Positions 37,398 through 49,644 of a DNA stretch of 49,644 nucleotides are shown here, piece by piece (position 1 is the first letter of the stretch; each line of letters opens with the position of its first letter). This DNA comes from Eubacterium sp. (lineage in GTDB: Bacteria; Bacillota; Clostridia; Oscillospirales; Acutalibacteraceae). The DNA lies in the NCBI GenBank assembly GCA_051881275.1, contig JBJEPO010000130.1:1-49644 (forward strand), written 5' to 3'. Both the position numbers and the translations under genes were made by a program. Under the pieces are notes generated by a model, which was not told the DNA's origin, searched no databases, and was given only the letters and a program-made list of their open reading frames with translations.

Positions 37398-38195
37398 TTA
37401 TTCCGAAAGCAACATTCTGTCGTTGTCAAGCTCCTCGCCGGAATTAACCTTGAATTTAGCAAGCAGATCGGCAGTTGTAAGATTCTTTTTCTCCTCACCG
37501 CTGACATCGTAAATAATCTTGCCGTCGTTCATCATAACAAGGCGGTTGCCTATGTTAATGGCGTCCTTCATATTATGGGTAATCATAATTGTTGTAAGAT
37601 TGTCTTTGTTTACAATTTTTTCGGTAAGGGAAAGAACCTTGTGAGCCGTTTTCGGGTCAAGGGCGGCAGTGTGCTCGTCAAGCAGAAGAAGCTTTGGCTT
37701 ATTCATAGTTGCCATAAGCAAGGTGATAGCCTGACGCTGACCGCCGGATAAAAGTCCCACCTTTGAGGTAAGCCTTGTTTCAAGTCCTAAATCAAGCTCT
37801 TTAAGAATTTGTGCATAATGCTCCTTTTCCTTGCGTGTTACACCGAAGGCAAGTCCTCTTGCTTTGCCTCGTCTTGCGGCAAGGGCAAGGTTTTCAACTA
37901 TCTGCATATCGGCGGCAGTACCGTTCATCGGGTCCTGGAAAACTCTGCCGATATATTTTGCTCTTTTGTGCTCCGGAAGCTTTGTAACGTCAACGCCGTC
38001 AATAATAATTGAACCGCAGTCAACGGGATATACACCTGCAACCATATTGAGCATTGTGGATTTTCCGGCGCCGTTACCGCCGATAACCGTTACGAAATCA
38101 CCCTCGTTAAGAACAAGGTCAACACCGTTTAACGCTTTTTTCTCATTTACAGTACCTGGGTTGAAGGTTTTGTGAACATTTTTAATCTCAAGCAT
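37398..38195 (-). CDS. ABC transporter ATPase (TrpZ-like)
   Basis: GGNGAGKST, RVFQDP, LSGGQRQ, LLDEHTAALDP. Confidence 0.9.
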   Translation of the reverse strand: MLEIKNVHKTFNPGTVNEKKALNGVDLVLNEGDFVTVIGGNGAGKSTMLNMVAGVYPVDCGSIIIDGVDVTKLPEHKRAKYIGRVFQDPMNGTAADMQIVENLALAARRGKARGLAFGVTRKEKEHYAQILKELDLGLETRLTSKVGLLSGGQRQAITLLMATMNKPKLLLLDEHTAALDPKTAHKVLSLTEKIVNKDNLTTIMITHNMKDAINIGNRLVMMNDGKIIYDVSGEEKKNLTTADLLAKFKVNSGEELDNDRMLLSE

Positions 38196-38199
38196 ATTC

Positions 38200-39102
38200 T
38201 TAAACCTCCTTTGCTTTCAGACGCTTATTGGCAATTTTTGATTTCCAGTAGGGTGCGCCCAGGAACAGTGCAACAACGATTGCCGAAAACAGTTTAAGGT
38301 CGTTTGCGTCAAGTCCTAATTTAAGTACAAGGGCAATTACTATGTAATAGATAACGCTTCCGAATACTGCGGCAAGCAATTTGAGGGCAAAGTTTTTGAA
38401 AATTTTGCCGAAAATAACCTCGCCGATAATAACTGCGGCAAGACCGATTACGATAGCGCCTCTGCCCATATTGATATCTGCGCTTCCGCTGAACTGTGCA
38501 AGAAGTCCGCCGGAAATTGCAACAAGTCCGTTTGAAATAACGAGACCTATAATTTTTCTTGTATCTGTGTTGATACCGTTGGCTCTTGCCATATTCTGGT
38601 TTGAACCTGTGGCACGGATTGAATGACCCATCTCTGTGCCGAAGAACCAGTAAAGCACGGCAATTATTACTACTACGAATATACCGGCTACAAGTATGGT
38701 ACGCCAAATTTGGAGCATATTTGACGATACGATAAGGTCAAAATTACGCCAGCTTATTGTAACATTTGCACGTCCGCTCATAATACGAAGATTGATTGAG
38801 TACAACGCAAGCTGTGTCAGAATACCTGCCAGAATAGCCGGTATGCCGAATTTTGTATGAAGTATGCCGGTGGCAAGACCTGCAAGACAGCCGGCAATAA
38901 ATGCTATCAGCAAAGCGATATAAATATTTGTTCCGTTTGTTGTAAGCACAACGAGAACGGCGCCGCCGGTGCCCAGTGTGCCGTCAACGGTAAGGTCCGC
39001 AAGGTCAAGAATTTTGTATGTGATGTAAACGCCTATCGCCATAATGCCCCAAATCATACCCTGGGCAATAGGAGAAGGCAGGGATTGCAAAAATTCTAAC
39101 AT
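38200..39102 (-). CDS. ABC transporter permease (TrpY-like)
   Basis: ADLTVDG, LYSINLRI, MGRGAIVIGLAAVIIGE. Confidence 0.88.
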   Translation of the reverse strand: MLEFLQSLPSPIAQGMIWGIMAIGVYITYKILDLADLTVDGTLGTGGAVLVVLTTNGTNIYIALLIAFIAGCLAGLATGILHTKFGIPAILAGILTQLALYSINLRIMSGRANVTISWRNFDLIVSSNMLQIWRTILVAGIFVVVIIAVLYWFFGTEMGHSIRATGSNQNMARANGINTDTRKIIGLVISNGLVAISGGLLAQFSGSADINMGRGAIVIGLAAVIIGEVIFGKIFKNFALKLLAAVFGSVIYYIVIALVLKLGLDANDLKLFSAIVVALFLGAPYWKSKIANKRLKAKEV

Positions 39103-39124
39103 AAGTATAAATTCTCCTAAGCAA

Positions 39125-39161
39125 CAAAAAAGCGATAAGGATAAATTTCTTATCGCTTTTT
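39125..39161 (-). terminator. Hairpin after the binding-protein gene (terminator or stabiliser)
   Basis: AAAAAGCGATAAG...CTTATCGCTTTTT. Confidence 0.7.
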
Positions 39162-39183
39162 ATTTTGTTTTAGTTTGTTATTT

Positions 39184-40209
39184 TTATTCAGCAGTCATAT
39201 CAATGGCTTCATATTCGTTGGGGATTGTGATGCCAAGCTTTTCTGCTCTGTCAGCAACATATTTCTTTGTAAGGTCTTTTGCGTACTGAATTTCCATATC
39301 GCCGGGGTTCTTGCCGTTTACAAGAATGTCATAAGCCATTTCGCCGGCAGCCTCGCCGATGCTGTAATAGCTGATTGAAAGTGTAGCGATACCGCAGCCC
39401 TTGCAGATACCCTCTTCACCTGCGATTACAGGAACCTTTGCAGGCTCAAGGATGTTGTTGATAGCCTCTGTGTTGGAAGCGGCGGTGTTATCGGTAGGAA
39501 TGAATACTACATCGCACTTGTCGGTAACAATCTGCTGTGTAACAGCGGATACGTCGTTTGTGTCAACGAAGGTGTATTCCTTGCTTGTCATACCGAGAGC
39601 CTTAATTTCCTCAGAGATAACGGTTGCCTGATACTTTGAGTTTGTTTCAGCAGAGCAGTAAAGGATACCTACTGTCTTTGCGTCGGGAACAAGCTCTTTA
39701 ATCATAGCTGCCTGGTCCTCTAAAGGAGCAAGGTCAGATGTACCTGTTACGTTAAAGCCTGTTTTACCTGTCCAGTCTTTAATGCCAAGACCTGTTGCGT
39801 AGTCTGTGATAGATGTAGCAACAATCGGAATGTCGGCAGTAGCCTGAGATGCGGTAGCCATAGCATCTGTTGCGTTAGCCATAATCAAGTCAACCTGGTC
39901 TGCTACGAACTTGGAGTTAATAGTAGTACAGTTTGTCTTTTCGCCTGATGCGTTCTGCTCGTCAAACTCAAATGTAATGCCGTTTTCTTCGCCGAGAGCA
40001 GTAAGCTTGTCCTTAAAGCCCTTTGTTGCCTCGTCAAGAGCCGGATGCTGAACCAGCTGGCAGATACCTATTTTGTATGATGCCTTTGCAGCTGCAGATG
40101 TAGCGTCGGCTTCATTGGTGTCTGTGTTACCTGAACATCCTGCAAATACAGATGCTACCAATGCACCTGAAAGTGCAACCGCAGCAATCTTTTTGATTAC
40201 CTTTTTCAT
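39184..40209 (-). CDS. ABC substrate-binding lipoprotein (TrpX-like; probably aromatic amino acid)
   Basis: Lipobox FAGC; QLVQHPALD, NVTGTSD, E.NS, PTDNT. Confidence 0.85.
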   Translation of the reverse strand: MKKVIKKIAAVALSGALVASVFAGCSGNTDTNEADATSAAAKASYKIGICQLVQHPALDEATKGFKDKLTALGEENGITFEFDEQNASGEKTNCTTINSKFVADQVDLIMANATDAMATASQATADIPIVATSITDYATGLGIKDWTGKTGFNVTGTSDLAPLEDQAAMIKELVPDAKTVGILYCSAETNSKYQATVISEEIKALGMTSKEYTFVDTNDVSAVTQQIVTDKCDVVFIPTDNTAASNTEAINNILEPAKVPVIAGEEGICKGCGIATLSISYYSIGEAAGEMAYDILVNGKNPGDMEIQYAKDLTKKYVADRAEKLGITIPNEYEAIDMTAE

Positions 40210-41336: not shown

Positions 41337-42029
41337 TTATTTTTTAAAGCGGTAGCCCTTGCCCCAAATTGTGTGAATATAGTCTGAATTTTTGTCGGCG
41401 GCAAAAAGCTTGTCCCTTATTCTGTTTACGTGGACGGTAACCGTAGAGGTTTCGCCCATGGAATCGTACTGCCATATTTTTTCAAAAAGCTCCTCCTTGC
41501 CGAAAACAGTGTCGGGATTTTCCGCAAGACAGGCAAGCAGGTCAAATTCCTTGTTGGTAAACACAATTTCGTTGTCGTTTACAAATACCCGTCGTGAATT
41601 TTTGTCAATTTTAAGATTGTCAATGCTGATTACGGAGGCGGCTTCGGCAGGGGAGCCGGTAAGACGCTCATACCTGCTGATGTGGGCAATAACTCTTGCC
41701 ACAAGCTCCGACGGACTGAAGGGCTTTACAATATAGTCGTCGGCACCGAAGCCAAGTCCCTTTATTTTGTCAAAATCGTCCTTTTTTGCACTTACAATTA
41801 TAATGGGAGTGTTGTCGTTTTCTCTAACCCTACGGCATATTTCAAGGCCGTCAACCTTTGGCAGCATAATGTCAAGAATCATCAGGTTAAAGCCGCCCTT
41901 GAGGGCAAGCTCCAGTCCCTCGGCACCGTCCGAAGCGGTTACCGCTTCAAAGCCGTTTGCCTCAAGATAATCCTTTTCAAGATGAAGTATATTTTCGTCA
42001 TCTTCAACAATCAGTATTTTTTTCTTCAT
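41337..42029 (-). CDS. OmpR/PhoB-family response regulator
   Basis: VEDD, LDIMLP, GADDYIVKPF, winged helix, TIWGKGYRF. Confidence 0.95.
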   Translation of the reverse strand: MKKKILIVEDDENILHLEKDYLEANGFEAVTASDGAEGLELALKGGFNLMILDIMLPKVDGLEICRRVRENDNTPIIIVSAKKDDFDKIKGLGFGADDYIVKPFSPSELVARVIAHISRYERLTGSPAEAASVISIDNLKIDKNSRRVFVNDNEIVFTNKEFDLLACLAENPDTVFGKEELFEKIWQYDSMGETSTVTVHVNRIRDKLFAADKNSDYIHTIWGKGYRFKK

Positions 42030-43551
42030 CTAAATCGCTCCTCTTATTAAGTGAAATGTATATTGTCAAGCCTTCGCCCTCTTTGCCCATTGCCCAAATA
42101 TGACCGCCGTGAAGCTCAACAATTTGCTTGCAGACGAAAAGACCTATTCCGGAGCCTTCGCCGGATTTGCTCCTTGCCTTGTCGGCACGGTAAAAGCTGT
42201 CAAAAATTCTGTTGAGATTTTTTACGTCAACGCCCATTCCGTTGTCCGATATGCTGATTATAACAGATTTTTCATAATTTTCAACGGATAGCTTTACTTC
42301 GCCCTTAATGTCCTTTTTTGTGTACTTTACCGAGTTTGACACTATGTTTCGTATAACCCTTGCAAAACGGTCTGCATCCAAATCAACCATTACGTCGCCG
42401 TCGCAGTTGTCGGTAAAGGTAAAGTCAAAATCCTGCTGTTCAAGCTCAAGGCTGATGTCCTCGGCGCAGTCACGCAGAAATGCGTTAAGATTTGTGGGCT
42501 GTGCGTCAAGCTCAACCTGTCCCAGCTCCAGCTTTGATACGGTCAGCAGGTGGTCCAGCATTTTTTCCGTATCATTGGTGGCGGAATATATGGTTTGCAG
42601 GTATCTCTGCTGCTTTTCCGGGGTGTCGGCTATGCCGTCCATAAGTCCCTCAACATATCCCTTAACCGATGTCAGCGGAGTTCTTAAATCGTGGGCAATG
42701 CCGGCAATCATCTCTTTACGGGACTGCTCCATTCGGTTTTGCTCCTCAAGCGAGTTTTTTAACTGCCGTGACATTTTGTTAAAGGAGTCAACTGTCTGTC
42801 CTATTTCATTTGTGCTCTTGTAGTCAATAACGTAATCAAGATTACCGTTTGCAATTTCGTCCGCACCCTCAGCCAGCTTTTGCAGAGGCTTGCTGATAGT
42901 CCGGGAGGTTATGAAGGACAGTGCGATGATTGATATTATAAACAACGCAACAATTATAATTATAAGAAGTCCCGTTTTGCCGAAAAGCAGTGAGCCTACG
43001 TCCTGGGGACTGTACTTTTTTGATGCGTCGTTTACCGTGTAATCCTCGTTGGCGATTATAACCACATATTTTTCCTTGTCGGCGTTGGCGTGGCTGACAA
43101 TAACTATGCCCTTTTCGCCGAAGTAATTAATATTTTCACTGAAATCTATGGGCACTATGTTGTTTGCCTTTTCTATAACGCTCTCTTTTTTTGCGGTTGA
43201 ATAAAAGGTTTTTCCGTTTTGCTCAATGTAAATTACCGAGCCTAATTCCTCCAGAGGAGATACAAATTCCTCAATGCTTTTGATTTTTTTACTGTCGCTG
43301 TCGTCGGATATAAGCTCGTTTGATATGGAGGACATTGTTTGGCTCCACTGGATTTGGTTAAGGGTGGAATATGTATTTGTGGTTACGGAGGAAAAATTAA
43401 AATAAGACGCAATGGTGCTTAAAAAAATTGAACTGAAAATAATAAGAATTACCAGCGGAATAGCAATTGCCGCCACGGTTGACAATGTAATTCTTGTGGT
43501 TATTTTAAAGTTTTTATAGCTTCGTTTTTTTGCTTTTTTCTTCTGCTTCAT
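42004..43551 (-). CDS. HAMP-domain sensor histidine kinase
   Basis: 2 TM segments, HAMP, AHDLRTPLT, NSVKY, DNGMG, GSGIGL. Confidence 0.95.
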   Translation of the reverse strand: MKQKKKAKKRSYKNFKITTRITLSTVAAIAIPLVILIIFSSIFLSTIASYFNFSSVTTNTYSTLNQIQWSQTMSSISNELISDDSDSKKIKSIEEFVSPLEELGSVIYIEQNGKTFYSTAKKESVIEKANNIVPIDFSENINYFGEKGIVIVSHANADKEKYVVIIANEDYTVNDASKKYSPQDVGSLLFGKTGLLIIIIVALFIISIIALSFITSRTISKPLQKLAEGADEIANGNLDYVIDYKSTNEIGQTVDSFNKMSRQLKNSLEEQNRMEQSRKEMIAGIAHDLRTPLTSVKGYVEGLMDGIADTPEKQQRYLQTIYSATNDTEKMLDHLLTVSKLELGQVELDAQPTNLNAFLRDCAEDISLELEQQDFDFTFTDNCDGDVMVDLDADRFARVIRNIVSNSVKYTKKDIKGEVKLSVENYEKSVIISISDNGMGVDVKNLNRIFDSFYRADKARSKSGEGSGIGLFVCKQIVELHGGHIWAMGKEGEGLTIYISLNKRSDLDEEKNTDC

Positions 43552-43600
43552 ATTATTGACCGGTCCGTATTTTCTGACGTTTAAAATCGTTCACTGCTCT

Positions 43601-43629
43601 ATTCTATAACAAAACGGACTATTTTACAA
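43601..43629 (-). promoter_or_regulatory. Putative promoter of the two-component system
   Basis: Minus strand TTGTAA, 17 bp spacer, TAGAAT. Confidence 0.5.
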
Positions 43630-43700
43630 GTCAATAATGTGTATAACCAATATATAAATATAAATAGAAAATAAATAATAGATAAAATTTACTAATTTTG

Positions 43701-43729
43701 TTGACTATTTTTTATTTATGTTGTATTAT
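43701..43729 (+). promoter_or_regulatory. Putative promoter of the VTC cluster
   Basis: TTGACT (43701), 17 bp spacer, TATTAT (43724). Confidence 0.6.
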
Positions 43730-43739
43730 TTACTCGGTA

Positions 43740-43768
43740 TGTTAATTCTTTGTTAATATGCTGTTATG
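43740..43768. promoter_or_regulatory. Three direct repeats at 11-bp spacing (OmpR/PhoB-type operator candidate)
   Basis: TGTTAAT (43740), TGTTAAT (43751), TGTTATG (43762). Confidence 0.55.
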
Positions 43769-43790
43769 TATTCAAAAGGGGTGTGATTTT

Positions 43791-44570
43791 ACGGCTATCT
43801 CAACTTTTAAAAGATATGAGCGAAAGTATCTTATAAAAAAAGATAAACTTGAAGAAATTATGCCGACCCTGCTTGAATATATGGAGCTGGACCCGTTCTG
43901 CCTTAACGGAAATGAATACAGGATTTACAGCATTTACTATGATACCGTAAATCACGACATTATCCGTCAAAACTCATCAAAGCCGGTTTATAAGGAAAAG
44001 ATGAGAATACGCTCCTACTATGACCGCAAGGACCCGGAGGACAAGGTCTTTATGGAAATCAAGAAAAAGAGCGAGGGCGTGGGCAACAAGCGCAGAATTA
44101 AAATCAAGCTTAAAGAGATTGAGCCTTTTGTTAACAAAGGTATTCTGCCCGAAACAAAGGATTATCTGTCCGCACAGGTTGCCAAGGAGTTACAGTATTT
44201 TCTTAAAATGAACAAGGTTGCTCCGGCGCTGTATGTTCAGTATGACCGTCTGGCGCTTTTCGGCAAGGAGGACAAAAATTTCCGTATGACGTTTGACAGG
44301 AATGTACATACAAGAAGGTCAAATTTCGTTTTCGGCGAAAGCGATGAGGATGAGCTTCTGCTTCCCGATGACGTTTATATTATGGAAATTAAAATACTCG
44401 GCTCGATGCCCTTGTGGCTTACAAGACTGCTGAGTGAAAACAATTTGTTCAGCCACGGATTTTCAAAATACGGCGTTAAGTACAAGCGTGACGCTCAGGA
44501 GCATAATCTTGAATATTATGTGACCGACGCCAACGGAAACCGGGTTGATTTTGACTACTTTCTTGATTAG
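43791..44570 (+). CDS. VTC-domain (CYTH/TTM) polyphosphate polymerase-like protein; start ambiguous (ACG 43791 or ATG 43758)
   Basis: RYERKY (ExK), SIYYDT, KEKMRIRSY, EIKKK, KRR, YDR, RMTFD, MEIK, FSKY. Confidence 0.88.
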   Translation, partial: TAISTFKRYERKYLIKKDKLEEIMPTLLEYMELDPFCLNGNEYRIYSIYYDTVNHDIIRQNSSKPVYKEKMRIRSYYDRKDPEDKVFMEIKKKSEGVGNKRRIKIKLKEIEPFVNKGILPETKDYLSAQVAKELQYFLKMNKVAPALYVQYDRLALFGKEDKNFRMTFDRNVHTRRSNFVFGESDEDELLLPDDVYIMEIKILGSMPLWLTRLLSENNLFSHGFSKYGVKYKRDAQEHNLEYYVTDANGNRVDFDYFLD

Positions 44571-44604
44571 GGTACCCTAAATATTATGACGGAGGAATTT
44601 ATTA

Positions 44605-45309
44605 ATGGAAGATTTTATGTATGCGCTAACTAGCGGAGATTATGCGTCACAGCTTTCAATAAAAAGCGTTATTGAGGTTGTGCTTTCCGCTTCAATAATA
44701 GGACTTGTAATAAGTCTTGTTTATCTGTTCACACATAAGAAAGAGGGATATTCACAGGCGTTCTGTGTATCACTTATATTGCTTGCACCCATTGTTGGCA
44801 TGGTAATTCTTGTAATCGGCAACAATGTGGCGACAGCCTTCAGCCTTGCAGGTGCATTTGCTCTTGTAAGATTTAGAAGTGCGCCCGGCGACCCGAAGGA
44901 CATTGCTTTTGTATTTTTAAGCGTAACCATGGGTCTTACCTGCGGTTTGGGCTACGCTCTTTATGCGGCGGTTGCGGCACTTATTCTTTGTGTAATTATC
45001 GTTTTGCTTCATATTACAAAGTATGCAGGCAAAAAGGGCAGTACATACGAGCTTAAAATTACCGTTCCCGAAACCCTTAACTATGCAGGCGCATTTGACG
45101 AAACCCTTAAAAAATATACGAAAAATTACCGTATGGTAAGAGTTAAGAGCGTTGATTTCGGCGCATTGTTTGAAATCAGTTACAGCGTTACACTTAAAGA
45201 TGACTCAAATATCCGTCAGATGATGGACGATTTAAGAGCACTTAACGGCAATCTTAAAATTATGCTTTCCACGGAAGCCACTGCCGTAAGAAGCTTTCAT
45301 TTCCAATAA
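44605..45309 (+). CDS. DUF4956-family membrane protein
   Basis: IGNN.A.AFSLAGAFALVRFRS..GDPKDI, GLTCG; ~4 TM segments plus soluble C-terminal domain. Confidence 0.88.
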   Translation: MEDFMYALTSGDYASQLSIKSVIEVVLSASIIGLVISLVYLFTHKKEGYSQAFCVSLILLAPIVGMVILVIGNNVATAFSLAGAFALVRFRSAPGDPKDIAFVFLSVTMGLTCGLGYALYAAVAALILCVIIVLLHITKYAGKKGSTYELKITVPETLNYAGAFDETLKKYTKNYRMVRVKSVDFGALFEISYSVTLKDDSNIRQMMDDLRALNGNLKIMLSTEATAVRSFHFQ

Positions 45310-45328
45310 TATTTTCCCCTATGCAAAC

Positions 45329-45359
45329 AGGAATGCCCCTATTATACGGCATTCCTTTT
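45329..45359 (+). terminator. Hairpin/terminator after DUF4956
   Basis: GGAATGCC...GGCATTCC followed by TTTT. Confidence 0.55.
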
Positions 45360-45452
45360 CGCAATTATTAGGACTGAAAAATTACTACAATTTGACGAAA
45401 ATTTACATTAACCTACAAAATATAGGCTTTCTTACTCAACAGGGAGGACTCT

Positions 45453-47417
45453 ATGAAATCTATTAAAAAAATAATTGCCGTATTTACTGCGGTTTCGGTA
45501 ATGGCGTGTTGCTTTGCAGGCTGTTCGGGAAAGGCTGAGCCGACGGCTGATACTACAGTCTCAACCACTGCCTCAACTACTCAGCAGGTTGTTTCTGCGG
45601 TTGATGTAAGCAAAAGCGCAGAGCAGGAAATTATATCCTTTACCGGTACTGACAAGGACGGTAATACCCTTAACCTTGTGCCTGTTTTTGACAAGGACGG
45701 CAAGACCGTTATTGCAGGCTACATAACCTCCGTTACAAACAAGGCAAAGCAACTGCTCAATGCAAATCAGTACAAGCTTTTAAACTGCGTTGTTGGTGCG
45801 TCTTCCGCTGACGGAAAGATTGTTCTTGACACGGATAAGGACAAAAACCTTGTACAGATAGAGGCATATTCCGACATGCAGGGCAATCTCGTGTGTATGA
45901 AGGACACCAAGGACCTTAACAAAAACAAGAATACCGCCGAATTTATTAAAATTATGTCGGGTATTGACAGTAACAAGGTCAAGATATATATGGCATACAC
46001 CACTGCCGACAAGCAATATCAAGCCGTTACAATTTCTTCGGAAAATAATAAGCTTTATATGACCGACAACGGCAAAAAGACAGAGGTTAAGCTTGTTAAC
46101 GCCCTTAACACCGCCGCTTCAAAAACGGTGTCAAAGGACGCAAACGATAACAAAAAGAAATCAAAAACAACTACTACCAAAACAAGCACAACCAAAAAGA
46201 CATCAACAACCGCACCTGCCAAAAGCTATATTAACATTAAGCTTTTGAAAAACAGAGCGGCTGAATGTAACTCACCAAATGTTACTCTCAGCACAGGAAA
46301 GGTTGTTATTACAAAAGGCGGAAATTATAAAATCACCTCCTCCACAGACAGCTGGCACGGACAGATTGAGCTAAGGCTTAAAAATACGGAAAGTGCCGAG
46401 CTGAGATTTGAGGATGTAAAGATTTCCAACGATTCGGAAAACATTATCAGAATTATTGATACAAGCATCACCAGCGACAGAAGCTTTATTGAGGCAGAGG
46501 CTATGGCAGGAACAGCCGCAGACGACGCTATCAAAGAGGTTGCGGATAACGACAAGGCTCCTAATGTAGATATATCATTCCCCACAGGTACAAAAAGCAC
46601 CTTTGAAACCTCAGCAAACAGCTACACAGGTGTTATCTATAACGAATCAAAGCTTACATTAAAGGGTAACGGCAGTGCATCAATAAATTCTACAAGAAAC
46701 GCCAACAACTGTATATGCTCCACCAAGAGCATTACCGTTAAAAATGTAAGACTTACTCTTACAACAGCGCAAAACGGCTCAACCGCAAATCTTGCGGAAT
46801 CAACAGGTTCTGCAAAGGGAATTTACTCTTACAGCAAGGTTATTATGGAAAGCGGAAGTCTTAATATAAAATCAAACGGCGACGCAATCAGATGCGATTC
46901 ATTTACGTCAAAGGGCGGTACAACAACTCTTAATTCTTCCGCCTGCGACGGTATTGACGCCGATGACGCCATTGTTCTTTCCGGCGGAACGGTTAAATCC
47001 ATTGCTTTGCAGAAGTCCTGCTTTAAGGTAAGACGAGTTAACAATACCGAAAAAGGCACCGGAAAGGGTGTCCGTCCCGGAAAAGGCGACACCTTTAAAA
47101 TCACAAAGGGCACTGTAATCGGCGAAAGCAAGAAAATTACCACCGTGCAGAAGGCGTCAACCCAGGCAAGCATAACCTGCAAGGCGCAGAAGGCAGGCAA
47201 GGGAACAGCCGCCGCAGCAGAGGAAAGCAAGGTTCCCGTTAAGTTCAACATCAGCGGACTTAAAAAATCGGAAAACGAATGTATAAAATTCCTTTATTCC
47301 TCATCAAGCGTTACCTCCGGAAAGGCTTATACCGTTACCGGCGGTAAGGACCCGGGCACTGTAAAGTGGAGCGGTAAAGTAGGAACAGCGGAAATTACAT
47401 CGTCAAACACTAAGTAA
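45453..47417 (+). CDS. Lipoprotein with C-terminal Cthe_2159/DUF4353-like beta-helix domain
   Basis: Lipobox FAGC; T/K linker; VVITKGGNY.I, LTLKGNG, GDAI, DGIDAD..I..SGGTV repeats. Confidence 0.72.
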   Translation: MKSIKKIIAVFTAVSVMACCFAGCSGKAEPTADTTVSTTASTTQQVVSAVDVSKSAEQEIISFTGTDKDGNTLNLVPVFDKDGKTVIAGYITSVTNKAKQLLNANQYKLLNCVVGASSADGKIVLDTDKDKNLVQIEAYSDMQGNLVCMKDTKDLNKNKNTAEFIKIMSGIDSNKVKIYMAYTTADKQYQAVTISSENNKLYMTDNGKKTEVKLVNALNTAASKTVSKDANDNKKKSKTTTTKTSTTKKTSTTAPAKSYINIKLLKNRAAECNSPNVTLSTGKVVITKGGNYKITSSTDSWHGQIELRLKNTESAELRFEDVKISNDSENIIRIIDTSITSDRSFIEAEAMAGTAADDAIKEVADNDKAPNVDISFPTGTKSTFETSANSYTGVIYNESKLTLKGNGSASINSTRNANNCICSTKSITVKNVRLTLTTAQNGSTANLAESTGSAKGIYSYSKVIMESGSLNIKSNGDAIRCDSFTSKGGTTTLNSSACDGIDADDAIVLSGGTVKSIALQKSCFKVRRVNNTEKGTGKGVRPGKGDTFKITKGTVIGESKKITTVQKASTQASITCKAQKAGKGTAAAAEESKVPVKFNISGLKKSENECIKFLYSSSSVTSGKAYTVTGGKDPGTVKWSGKVGTAEITSSNTK

Positions 47418-47437
47418 AAAGGCAGGAGGATATGTTT

Positions 47438-49644
47438 ATGAAAAAGAAGTTCAAAGGCATAATTGCCGCGTTTGTTGCGCTGGTAATTGTTGTTACAACA
47501 ATCTGTATCAGCCCCATTACAGCGCAGGCAATCAGCACTCCTCAGGATTTGGAGAGCACCGCCGTTCAGTTTTGGGCCGATCCGGAAAACTGTGTGACCG
47601 AAAATGATTTGGCGTCATACACCGCCGGTACAAAAACTGCAATGACAGGTGCGGTAGGTGTTTTCGCCCGCAGTACATCATCAACAAACTACTATCTGTT
47701 TTTGCCCTCAGATGCGGATTGTACCAATCTTAAGGTTTGGTTTAACGCATCAAGCGCCACCGTTGACGGAACAGAGGTAATTAACGGACAGAAAACCGAC
47801 GTATTTTCTGCCATCAACGCCGGCGGAATATCTCAGACCTACAGTATTGCTCTTGATTCAAAAACATACAGTGTTACCGCTATGAAATCAGGCGAGGTAG
47901 GCGCAGTATATATTGATACAAGCACCGGCTCTATGAAATCCGTTAACACCTCTGAGGACAAGAGCGCTTACGAAACCGGTACTATTATGGTAATTGACTC
48001 TGACGGTACCATTAACTATAACGGCGCCCTTGAAAAGATTAACGGACGCGGTAACGGCACCTGGTCAACTACCAATACAAAAAATCCATACAATATTAAA
48101 TTGGGCGTTTCAACAAGTCTTTTGGGATTGCCGAAAGCAAAAAAGTGGTGCTTGCTTGCAAATTCATCGGACGCTACGCTTATTAAAAATCAGTTGTCCT
48201 ACGATTTTGCGGATTATATCGGCGTAAAATATCAGCCTCGCTGTAAGCCGGTTGACTTGTACATCAACCATCAGTATTACGGCTCATATCAGCTCAGCGA
48301 AAAGGTTGAAATTAAATCAAACCGTATAGACGTTACAGACGCTTATGAAAATCTTGAAATCGCTAACGGCACAACGGATACAACAACAGGTATTACAACA
48401 CCTGCCGATTTAACCGGTACTGCCGTTACCACATATAACCCCAACACCACGGGTACAAACACAACAAACCTTCCCGACCACTCGGTATCATCAAAGAGAT
48501 ATTCAACAGGTCTGAACAATCCGACGGACATAACCGGCGGATACCTGTTTGAGCTTGAAATAAGTAACCGCTGGGTTGAAGAAAATGCCGGCTTCTGTGC
48601 TTATAACAGACAGGGCTGGGTAATTAAAAGCTGTGATTACGCAACACAGGAAATGGTTGATTACAGCTACGATTTGCTTTATGCAATGGGCTCTGCCGTT
48701 TACAACAGCGGTACGGTGCCAAGTGCATCAACCACCACCAACTGTTCTTCTCTTTCGTCTTTAAGCGAATTCACTTACGGACCGAGAAGTATTACAAACC
48801 CTGCACCTGCAAGTCAGTATCAGGGCAAAAAATGGAGCGATATTCTTGATGCGGATTCAGCAGTAAGATATTACTGGACCCAGGAATATTTTAAGAATAT
48901 GGACTCATCCACATCCTCTACATATTTTTATAAGGACAGCGATTCTATTGACACAAAGGTATATGCAGGACCTATGTGGGATATGGATAACTCAATCGGT
49001 TATGACTGCGGCACCGGCGAACGCTGGGGCTACAGCTGGACCTCCAGCACAGGCTGGTACACAAAGAATGCAAGACTTTATCGCTGGAGAAGCAAGGACT
49101 CCACCACAACATATTCCACAGATAAGCAGTCCCCGCTTAACTTTTACGGCGCACTTGCTACAAATTGTACTGATTTCTGGCAGATGGCGCAGAATTACTG
49201 GTATTCACGCATTGAGCCGGCAACAAAGATTTTGCTGGGCGAAGCAACAGACCCAACCGGTGTACTTAAATCCACCGAATACTATGCGTCCACAGTAGAA
49301 AAATCTGCAAAAATGAACGCACTTAGAATGGACATTACCGACTATGACGCCGCATCGGTTATCAGCGGAATGAACAACTGGTTTACAGAGCGTAACACAT
49401 GGATTGACAGCCAGTTTGCAAAGGTTGACATTAACAACTGTACAGTTGCGGATATTGCAAGTCAGCCATGCACAGGCTCTCCGATTGAACCGACCCTTAC
49501 AATCACATATAACGGCGCAACTCTTGAAGAAGGCGTTGATTACGAGGTTGAGTATTCAAATAATATTACTGCAGGTAAAAGTGCAGTTGCAACAATAACC
49601 GGTTTAGGATTATACGAGGGTACAAAAACAATTAACTTCACAAT
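47438..49644 (+). CDS. Secreted CotH-family kinase (3'-partial; not in the ORF track)
   Basis: GGAGGA RBS then ATG 47438; signal peptide ending AQA; YYLFLP; GRGNGTW, KNPYNIKL, KKWCLLAN, VDLYIN..YYGSYQLSEKV, GGYLFELE, EYFKNMD, GPMWDMDNSIG; Ig-like repeat at the end; frame open to the window edge. Confidence 0.92.
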   Translation, partial: MKKKFKGIIAAFVALVIVVTTICISPITAQAISTPQDLESTAVQFWADPENCVTENDLASYTAGTKTAMTGAVGVFARSTSSTNYYLFLPSDADCTNLKVWFNASSATVDGTEVINGQKTDVFSAINAGGISQTYSIALDSKTYSVTAMKSGEVGAVYIDTSTGSMKSVNTSEDKSAYETGTIMVIDSDGTINYNGALEKINGRGNGTWSTTNTKNPYNIKLGVSTSLLGLPKAKKWCLLANSSDATLIKNQLSYDFADYIGVKYQPRCKPVDLYINHQYYGSYQLSEKVEIKSNRIDVTDAYENLEIANGTTDTTTGITTPADLTGTAVTTYNPNTTGTNTTNLPDHSVSSKRYSTGLNNPTDITGGYLFELEISNRWVEENAGFCAYNRQGWVIKSCDYATQEMVDYSYDLLYAMGSAVYNSGTVPSASTTTNCSSLSSLSEFTYGPRSITNPAPASQYQGKKWSDILDADSAVRYYWTQEYFKNMDSSTSSTYFYKDSDSIDTKVYAGPMWDMDNSIGYDCGTGERWGYSWTSSTGWYTKNARLYRWRSKDSTTTYSTDKQSPLNFYGALATNCTDFWQMAQNYWYSRIEPATKILLGEATDPTGVLKSTEYYASTVEKSAKMNALRMDITDYDAASVISGMNNWFTERNTWIDSQFAKVDINNCTVADIASQPCTGSPIEPTLTITYNGATLEEGVDYEVEYSNNITAGKSAVATITGLGLYEGTKTINFT

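What the first reader, a model, noticed from the sequence alone, without database searches (positions are those of the whole stretch)
43791..49644. VTC polymerase + DUF4956 + beta-helix lipoprotein + secreted CotH kinase: candidate polyphosphate export and extracellular phosphorylation system
Seen: four co-oriented genes encoding a soluble VTC/CYTH protein with basic tunnel motifs, a ~4-TM DUF4956 protein, a Lys-rich lipoprotein with a Cthe_2159-like beta-helix, and a signal-peptide CotH kinase. Established: yeast Vtc4 makes polyP from ATP and passes it through a channel built from Vtc TM helices; CotH proteins are atypical kinases; Cthe_2159 binds cellulose and polygalacturonate. Inference: this is a split bacterial counterpart of the VTC complex. 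DUF4956 would be the channel, the lipoprotein would capture the exported polyanion, and CotH would use it as phosphoryl donor outside the cell, where ATP is scarce. I recall this neighbourhood recurring in other genomes but know of no functional description.
Basis: partly seen in the sequence, partly recalled or inferred. Interest (0 to 1): 0.85.

Follow-up and report, generated by a model that had tools for sequence, protein, structure and literature searches.

The report
Polyphosphate-supplied exported kinase gene cluster
Five co-oriented genes in a gut bacterium join a yeast-type polyphosphate-making enzyme and a membrane protein to a surface lipoprotein and a giant secreted kinase; exported kinases of this family almost never occur without the enzyme-membrane pair, so the pair likely supplies phosphate donor outside the cell, an untested route.

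Summary
The genes are VTC (probable ACG start at 43791), DUF4956, a Cthe_2159 lipoprotein and CotH. CotH runs off the contig; its apparent continuation on contig C163 gives 1,747 aa, followed by a fifth secreted gene.

The VTC keeps the Vtc4 catalytic residues and resembles a polymerase more than a hydrolase. The genome shows no PPK1, PPK2, PPX or PelG.

VTC and DUF4956 mark the same 22 of 161 Bacillota genomes. Exported-type CotH came with VTC in 16 of 17 genomes; spore-type CotH without a signal peptide occurs without it. This one-way dependence is the best support for donor supply.

Corrections: DUF4956 is MgtC-like (five helices plus ACT), with no detected Vtc1 homology. The core is VTC-DUF4956. 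This VTC clade usually sits beside Cthe_2159 or alone, and CotH is a lineage-specific addition. Most partner lipoproteins are acidic.

The VTC/DUF4956/CotH set is in print as pel accessory genes, without biochemistry; that paper's claim that it is confined to pel loci fails here. This scan noted the module before on other DNA (455 notes). No mechanistic step is shown.

The parts
43701..43729 (+). sigma-70-like promoter candidate (TTGACT-17-TATTAT)
   Evidence: 10 of 12 consensus match; the region holds 18 such sites against 12.7 +/- 4.0 in shuffles, so weak
43791..44570 (+). VTC / triphosphate-tunnel enzyme, predicted polyphosphate polymerase; 259 aa from the probable ACG start (residue numbers in this report count from the ATG at 43758)
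   Evidence: PF09359 8e-49; profile hits Vtc2/3/4 in the PDB, best 9e-21; residue counts; start codon
44605..45309 (+). DUF4956 membrane protein: five predicted helices plus ACT domain, MgtC-like, invariant R89-F90-R91
45322..45363 (+). intergenic hairpin (16-nt arms), followed by a weak promoter-like site at 45392-45421
   Evidence: (z -3.0, 2 of 200 shuffles as stable)
45453..47417 (+). lipoprotein with a divergent Cthe_2159 beta-helix; K/T/S-rich linker (234-258); basic K-x-x-x-K-V-R-R patch where canonical members have E-G-[LI]-E
   Evidence: (family profile vs 4PEU, E 2e-55)
47432..49644 (+). 5' part of a secreted CotH kinase (kinase region about residues 151-665; D491 and D517 align with the catalytic aspartates). 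Apparently continues on G000:C163:2-3040 with three repeated beta-sandwich-like modules and a dockerin-like tail
41337..43551 (-). divergent histidine kinase (42004-43551) and OmpR-type regulator (41337-42029); possible regulator of the cluster, not shown
   Evidence: an OmpR-type gene lies within 4 kb of VTC in 22 of 52 loci, against 260 of 5000 random positions in this genome

Best explanation
The cytoplasmic VTC enzyme likely polymerises polyphosphate from ATP, the DUF4956 membrane protein would pass it across the membrane, and the secreted CotH kinase would use it as phosphoryl donor at the cell surface, with the lipoprotein predicted to hold or present the polyanion. Shown here: gene content, conserved catalytic residues, export signals read from sequence, and the one-way genomic dependence of exported CotH on VTC-DUF4956. 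Inferred: polymer synthesis, transport through DUF4956 (probably an oligomer whose invariant R-F-R arginines line the cytoplasmic mouth), and polyP use by CotH. VTC-DUF4956 is best seen as a general supply unit serving exported clients: Cthe_2159 proteins, one or several CotH kinases, nearby or scattered. In this lineage it is joined in one cluster with a basic-patch lipoprotein, a 1,747-aa CotH and a fifth dockerin-like protein. The acceptor (surface protein, such as the lipoprotein's own K/T/S-rich linker, or a glycan) is unknown.
For: Enzyme: positions matching Vtc4 K200, R264, R266, K281, Y359, E426, K428 and K458 are invariant in 40 of 40 bacterial VTCs; R196 and R361 in 39 of 40. R264A/R266A/E426N inactivates Vtc4 (PMC9911596); K458 is catalytic in Vtc4 but dispensable in the hydrolase TTM3 (PMC4641920). 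By motif reading, two hydrolase acidic-patch positions (E2, E171) are basic here (R19, K212), as in Vtc4. Pairing: same 22 of 161 genomes, 25 copies each, 24 pairs within about 2.3 kb; 77 of 80 loci; same 3 of 14 control genomes, across Bacteroides, Corynebacterium and Methanosarcina; one 473-aa fusion. Dependence: CotH in 20 of 161 genomes; three carry only short CotH with no N-terminal hydrophobic stretch, two of these three lack VTC; 16 of the other 17 have VTC-DUF4956. Among 41 relatives, 17 of 18 CotH genomes have VTC, and the 18th (62% complete) has DUF4956 cut by a contig end. All 21 genomes with a stand-alone VTC-DUF4956 pair encode Cthe_2159 (19) or CotH (18) elsewhere. Not storage: no PPK1, PPK2 or PPX found in this genome, and VTC does not replace PPK1 (PPK1 in 8 of 22 VTC genomes vs 18 of 139 others). 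DUF4956 R89/R91 are invariant in 39 of 39.
Against: No activity is measured. E21, the hydrolase-type second-metal position that Vtc4 lacks, is kept in 39 of 40. DUF4956 is MgtC-like, and MgtC is described as a regulator (PMC12345266 discussion); its two conserved arginines sit at one helix end rather than along a helix as in the yeast pore. One complete genome (G052) has an exported CotH but no VTC or DUF4956. At least 9 near-complete VTC genomes have no exported CotH (G011, G032, G034, G035, G037, G061, G157, G176, G181), and G032 has neither CotH nor Cthe_2159. In S. intermedius, deleting the VTC gene gave no aggregation defect while deleting cotH or DUF4956 did, with opposite effects on Pel level; a strict linear pathway predicts alike phenotypes. 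Characterised CotH uses ATP. Lipoprotein net charge varies even in this clade (positive in 4 of 9). Genomes are related, so the counts overstate independence.
Confidence: 0.45

Rival explanations
1. PolyP is made and exported, but as an end product: a surface polyanion held by the Cthe_2159 beta-helix (through Ca2+ in acidic members, directly in this clade). CotH attaches, trims or senses the chain rather than using it as donor for single phosphorylations.
For: This VTC clade is most often beside Cthe_2159 without CotH; several complete genomes have VTC-DUF4956-Cthe_2159 and no CotH; the catalytic-loop Asn of spore CotH is Ser496 here.
Against: The other VTC clade (16 rows) sits beside CotH without Cthe_2159; both catalytic aspartates of CotH are kept; the Asn-to-Ser change is shared by other exported CotH.
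Confidence: 0.2
2. DUF4956 is an MgtC-like membrane regulator or anchor, not a conduit. VTC acts only in the cytoplasm, and the link to exported CotH/Cthe_2159 and the two-component system is regulatory.
For: MgtC similarity and ACT domain; OmpR-type regulators are enriched nearby; differing knockout phenotypes in S. intermedius.
Against: It leaves the exported kinase without a donor and does not explain why signal-less CotH is free of VTC while exported CotH is not; no cytoplasmic polyP-consuming enzyme was found in this genome.
Confidence: 0.2
3. The VTC is not a processive polymerase. It is a triphosphatase or makes only short chains (PPPi), and the donor passed outward is a short polyphosphate or ATP.
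For: Conserved E21 plus an extra invariant K81 not in Vtc4; TTM3 looked like Vtc4 yet proved a hydrolase.
Against: E2 and E171 positions are basic and the K458 equivalent is invariant; the profile finds only Vtc proteins among TTMs in the PDB; the genome has a separate CYTH gene.
Confidence: 0.11
4. The genes are merely an accessory of Pel polysaccharide synthesis, or a chance grouping.
For: Published occurrence beside pel operons.
Against: No PelG in this genome (92.5% complete) or in 18 of 22 VTC genomes; co-gain and co-loss within the genus (11 of 12 VTC genomes have CotH; 12 of 13 VTC-negative lack it).
Confidence: 0.04

Closest known systems
Yeast VTC complex (Vtc4/Vtc3/Vtc1; PDB 3G3Q, 7YTJ, 8I6V)
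   Same: Homologous tunnel enzyme with catalytic residues kept; tight pairing with a membrane protein that has conserved arginines.
   Different: Enzyme is a free 259-aa protein with no SPX or TM domain; it keeps a Glu where Vtc4 has Thr198; the membrane partner is MgtC-like with five helices plus ACT, with no detected kinship to the three-helix Vtc1 unit; it would cross the plasma membrane, not a vacuole.
cotH / polyP polymerase / DUF4956 accessory genes of Gram-positive pel loci (PMC7112168; S. intermedius SIR_1592-1594, PMC12345266)
   Same: The same three families, adjacent; MgtC+ACT reading of DUF4956; secreted CotH.
   Different: No pel genes found here; VTC belongs to the other clade; a Cthe_2159 lipoprotein is inserted; CotH is 1,747 aa with a dockerin-like tail; no DUF4832 hydrolase. 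Those papers propose no export or donor mechanism in the passages read.
C. perfringens NELoc-2 VTC / membrane protein / CotH cluster (PMC2879425)
   Same: VTC genes followed by a 222-226-aa membrane protein and CotH.
   Different: Annotation only; lies beside a glycosyltransferase; that the membrane protein is DUF4956 is my inference from size and place.
Bacillus spore-coat kinase CotH (PDB 5JD9/5JDA)
   Same: R-G motif, Lys and both catalytic aspartates (B. subtilis D228, D251) align.
   Different: Spore CotH is about 360 aa, has no signal peptide, uses ATP and occurs without VTC; this one is secreted, multidomain, with Ser for the catalytic-loop Asn.
Cthe_2159 beta-helix (PDB 4PEU)
   Same: Same family.
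   Different: Divergent (37 bits vs over 300 for typical members), lipid-anchored, basic patch in place of E-G-[LI]-E. Cellulose and polygalacturonate binding is known only for the C. thermocellum protein (as cited in PMC6712302).

Membership tests
VTC polyP polymerase (Vtc4-like) | TTM tunnel domain of the VTC family | tested here: met
   PF09359 8e-49; PDB profile hits Vtc4 at 9e-21
VTC polyP polymerase (Vtc4-like) | catalytic R264, R266, E426, K458 and basic K200, K281, K428 | tested here: met
   R83, R85, E210, K237, K23, K102, K212; 40 of 40
VTC polyP polymerase (Vtc4-like) | absence of the hydrolase acidic patch (second metal site) | tested here: inconclusive
   E2 and E171 positions are basic, but the E4 position is kept as E21 in 39 of 40; mapping to TTM3 is by motif (TTM3 N-terminal motif recalled), E90 not mapped
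VTC polyP polymerase (Vtc4-like) | polyP synthesis from ATP | not testable with these tools
   needs an assay
Eukaryotic VTC complex | Vtc1/DUF202-type three-helix channel subunits | tested here: inconclusive
   DUF4956 members lean to MgtC and model with five helices; non-listing of Vtc chains in fold searches does not exclude kinship
Eukaryotic VTC complex | SPX regulatory domain and TM domain fused to the enzyme | tested here: not met
   the enzyme is a single 259-aa domain
TTM tripolyphosphatases (TTM3, YgiF) | N-terminal ExExK and E-x-E acidic patch | tested here: not met
   RxExK and E-x-K in 39-40 of 40
CotH kinases | CotH domain with catalytic aspartates | tested here: met
   PF08757 3e-24; D491 and D517 align with 5JD9 D224 and D247
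CotH kinases | catalytic-loop Asn five residues after the catalytic Asp | tested here: not met
   Ser496, invariant in 9 of 9 clade members; shared by some other exported CotH; the role of this Asn is recalled from general kinase knowledge
CotH kinases | phosphoryl donor (ATP or polyP) and acceptor | not testable with these tools
   needs an assay
pel accessory gene set | contiguous with pelDEADAFG | tested here: not met
   no PelG in the genome; flanks are a two-component system and, on C163, unrelated genes
MgtC family | membrane domain plus C-terminal ACT domain | tested here: inconclusive
   ACT confirmed (MgtC C-terminal domain 2lqj Z 8.4, rmsd 2.7, 87 aligned, tied with many other ACT folds); membrane similarity weak (62 of 137 at E up to 5; the window protein itself has no PF02308 hit)

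The most novel reading that the evidence does not exclude
VTC-DUF4956 is a widespread prokaryotic polyphosphate secretion unit, built from a Vtc4-type polymerase and an independently recruited MgtC-type channel. It is the general energy supply for phosphorylation outside the cytoplasm, and exported CotH kinases are polyP-dependent kinases.
Probability: 0.42. Interest if true: 0.9.

Novelty: new variant of a known kind. Interest (0 to 1): 0.68.

Why it matters
How bacteria could phosphorylate anything outside the cytoplasm, and how polyP gets out of bacterial cells, are open questions; an August 2026 preprint calls the source and export route of extracellular polyP unknown (PMC13484657; B. cereus itself is stated there to lack a VTC4 homologue, so this module would not explain that case). 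The module was in about 1 in 7 Bacillota genomes sampled and in three laboratory organisms among the controls, so it can be tested directly. If right, it would give a function to DUF4956, to bacterial VTC proteins and to the many exported CotH kinases of gut and cellulolytic anaerobes, and would show a third bacterial polyP synthase type.

Tried and rejected
Complex prediction of VTC with DUF4956 (1:1, with alignments) returned no verdict (score 0.00 in both runs, controls not folded); it is not used either way.

Fold searches of the DUF4956 membrane part alone gave only generic helical bundles (best Z 8.4 to archaeal virus capsid proteins; no Foldseek hit at E up to 0.001; no Vtc chain among the rows shown): inconclusive. 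The PDB sequence search with the DUF4956 profile found nothing meaningful. NCBIfam has no model for the four proteins. No VTC relative was found in viral contigs with this single query.

The fusion search found 2 long proteins, one a VTC-DUF4956 fusion known from a single cluster member: weak. P0203 looks like a deletion chimera and was not counted.

Rejected: VTC as a PPK1 substitute; restriction to pel loci; general capture by a Lys-rich lipoprotein. Promoter and terminator scans did not exceed chance.

Public runs: a pig-gut contig (X4) spans 42658-48826 at about 95% identity with the same gene order. One RNA run holds contigs of a relative at about 90% identity, which does not show transcription.

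The protein Atlas gave no answer for the fifth gene or the lipoprotein. The original CotH structure paper and the Cthe_2159 structure paper were not held, so the adenine pocket and Ca2+ ligands could not be mapped. Supplements of the pel papers were not read and may hold wider neighbourhood data.
Full report
Observation. The window is the whole contig C130 of a 2.09-Mb, 92.5% complete genome. Close homologues are labelled Eubacterium sp., Oscillospiraceae or Clostridia by their sources, so this is a gut clostridium. Four + strand ORFs fill 43.8-49.6 kb and match PF09359, PF16316, PF14262 and PF08757 above cut-off. Each family is single-copy in the genome. The VTC most likely starts at ACG 43791: a GGGGTG site lies just upstream, and 9 of 10 readable orthologues also use a non-ATG codon there. 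CotH leaves the contig at residue 737. Contig C163 begins with the same 9 nt and matches the C-terminal 1,000 residues of orthologous CotH at 50-57%, giving 1,747 aa, in line with 1,724-1,765 aa ORFs in seven relatives. The tail has three repeats of a beta-sandwich-like module and a weak dockerin-like motif. A fifth secreted gene of 403 aa with a similar motif follows and was seen at five relatives' loci.

The enzyme. A profile of 40 bacterial VTCs finds, among 11 PDB sequences at E up to 1, ten Vtc2/3/4 chains (best 9e-21) and one chance hit. Counting on the Vtc4 chain 8I6V_E, the equivalents of K200, R264, R266, E279, K281, K294, Y359, R373, E426, K428 and K458 are invariant in 40 of 40, and R196 and R361 in 39 of 40. 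R264/R266/E426 are the residues mutated to inactivate VTC (PMC9911596, passages and section 9). TTM hydrolases are marked by an acidic patch E2/E4/E90/E171 and do not need the K458 equivalent (PMC4641920, passages and section 21). By motif reading, two patch positions are basic here (R19, K212) and one is acidic (E21, 39 of 40). The enzyme is therefore polymerase-like with one hydrolase-type residue. The same paper shows that a Vtc4-like appearance misled for TTM3, so activity is inferred.

The membrane protein. The model (137 sequences, pLDDT 88) has five helices and a C-terminal ACT fold; a membrane-only model agrees. Pfam scanning of all 137 members gave MgtC in 62 (E up to 5, best 1.5e-5), and DUF202 was not among the 25 families listed. 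This matches the published MgtC+ACT reading of SIR_1592. G83, R89, F90, R91, G110 and G114 are invariant in 39 of 39 and position 99 is always acidic. If ACT is cytoplasmic, the R-F-R lies at the cytoplasmic end of helix 3, which suits an anion-binding mouth; that is inference. The yeast pore uses basic residues along TM1 of unrelated subunits. Any channel here would be analogous to the yeast one, with no homology detected.

The lipoprotein. The family profile matches 4PEU at 2e-55, but this member is divergent. In 8 of 8 aligned own-clade proteins, K-x-x-x-K-V-R-[RK] aligns where most canonical members have E-G-[LI]-E. In the separate set, KVR[RK] was in 7 of 9 own-clade proteins (one truncated) and 0 of 32 others. 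Net charge is negative in 13 of 13 lipoproteins at CotH-less loci and 32 of 32 outside-clade ones; within the clade it runs from -32 to +25. The basic patch is a single evolutionary event that coincides with the arrival of CotH, so it cannot be tested statistically. A K/T/S-rich linker precedes the beta-helix in the window protein and several orthologues and is a candidate kinase substrate, by analogy with the serine-rich repeats of CotB.

The kinase. D491 and D517 align with 5JD9 D224 and D247, which have the spacing of B. subtilis D228 and D251, both required for activity (PMC7821199, passages). The R-G motif and K217 are invariant in 9 of 9. The Asn five residues after the catalytic Asp is Ser. 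Donor specificity could not be examined.

Co-occurrence. In an even draw of 161 Bacillota genomes (own included, at least 90% complete), VTC and DUF4956 occur in the same 22, with 25 copies each; 24 pairs lie within about 2.3 kb and one is split across contig ends. CotH is in 20, Cthe_2159 in 11, PelG in 7 over cut-off and PPK1 in 26. Three CotH genomes carry only 352-368-aa proteins with no N-terminal hydrophobic stretch (maximum 13-residue hydropathy 0.5-0.7); two of them lack VTC. Of 30 other CotH proteins examined, 29 scored 2.1 or more; CotH not examined were classed by length. Sixteen of the 17 genomes with long, exported-type CotH have VTC-DUF4956. The exception, G052, is complete and stayed negative with my own profile. 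Among 41 relatives, 17 of 18 CotH genomes have VTC, and the last has DUF4956 cut by a contig end. Fisher tests give p 7e-16 and 4e-6 but ignore kinship. The converse is looser: 20 of 22 VTC genomes in the draw have exported CotH or Cthe_2159 (the other two loci end at contig edges), and G032 has neither.

Two clades. A tree of 40 VTCs splits with 100/99 support into 16 rows mostly beside CotH and 24 rows mostly beside Cthe_2159; the window's enzyme is in the latter, and only its own nine-row clade has CotH adjacent (labels). Among 80 further loci of this clade (the best of 590 confirmed; the sets overlap in part with the above), DUF4956 was found in 77. All 8 own-clade loci with enough flank have four genes. 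Of 45 others with at least 6 kb downstream, 21 have Cthe_2159 only, 21 neither, 2 both and 1 CotH only. The 21 stand-alone pairs have unrelated neighbours, yet 19 of their genomes encode Cthe_2159 and 18 CotH elsewhere, often several copies; all 21 have one or the other. In VTC-negative genomes of the phylum draw, each family was seen in 3 of 139; among closer relatives Cthe_2159 was in 6 of 19, so its link is looser than that of CotH.

Literature. Ten searches found the gene set in PMC7112168 (passages), PMC12345266 (abstract and passages) and PMC2879425 (passages). PMC12345266 reports that deleting cotH or the DUF4956 gene lowered aggregation and changed Pel in opposite directions, that the VTC gene deletion still aggregated, and that the three genes were not found together outside pel loci. 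The last point is contradicted here: 18 of 22 VTC genomes and this genome show no PelG. None of these searches returned a biochemical study of a bacterial VTC, of DUF4956 or of polyP use by CotH; subscription journals are mostly outside the library.

Verdict. The cluster is real and conserved. It is a lineage-specific, pel-independent variant of a gene set noted in print but not explained. The pattern that best separates the hypotheses is that CotH with access to cytoplasmic ATP occurs without VTC-DUF4956 while exported CotH almost never does. That favours supply of an outside phosphoryl donor, most likely polyP (0.45), over polyP as an end product (0.2), a purely regulatory membrane partner (0.2), a different donor (0.11) or Pel-only/chance (0.04). 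Earlier notes of this scan reached a similar idea on other DNA; they are not counted as evidence.

Noticed in passing
window 43791-43793; L106-L116: The VTC start is ACG in this genome and three relatives and TTG or CTG in six more, always behind a strong Shine-Dalgarno: a conserved weak start that may keep the enzyme scarce.
   Followed up: partly
window 41337-43551; L106-L185: An OmpR-type regulator lies within 4 kb of VTC in 22 of 52 loci, against about 5% of random positions in this genome; orthology and signal not examined.
   Followed up: partly
L100 (G000:C4:22000-29929): A separate cluster of large secreted proteins with dockerin motifs, one carrying a weak cohesin domain (E 6e-5) plus dockerin; a possible docking partner for the dockerin-like tails of CotH and the fifth gene.
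   Followed up: partly
L029:3897-4600: DUF4956 of relative G016 is split into two overlapping ORFs while the other genes are intact; frameshift or assembly error.
   Followed up: no
L040:3096-3815 and L103:148-4909: In G037 the VTC stands beside an alpha-amylase gene while two-component system, DUF4956 and Cthe_2159 lie together on another contig: a split module with all parts kept.
   Followed up: no
window 37398-40209 and L043:6917-9640: The same three-gene ABC transporter lies about 3 kb from the module both here and in G028, a different family.
   Followed up: no
L099:6912-8174: An integrase-like ORF (read from sequence) lies 2.6 kb beyond the fifth gene on C163.
   Followed up: no
G203: One 1.9-Mb genome with a stand-alone VTC-DUF4956 pair encodes about seven scattered long CotH proteins; several kinases may share one supply unit.
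   Followed up: partly
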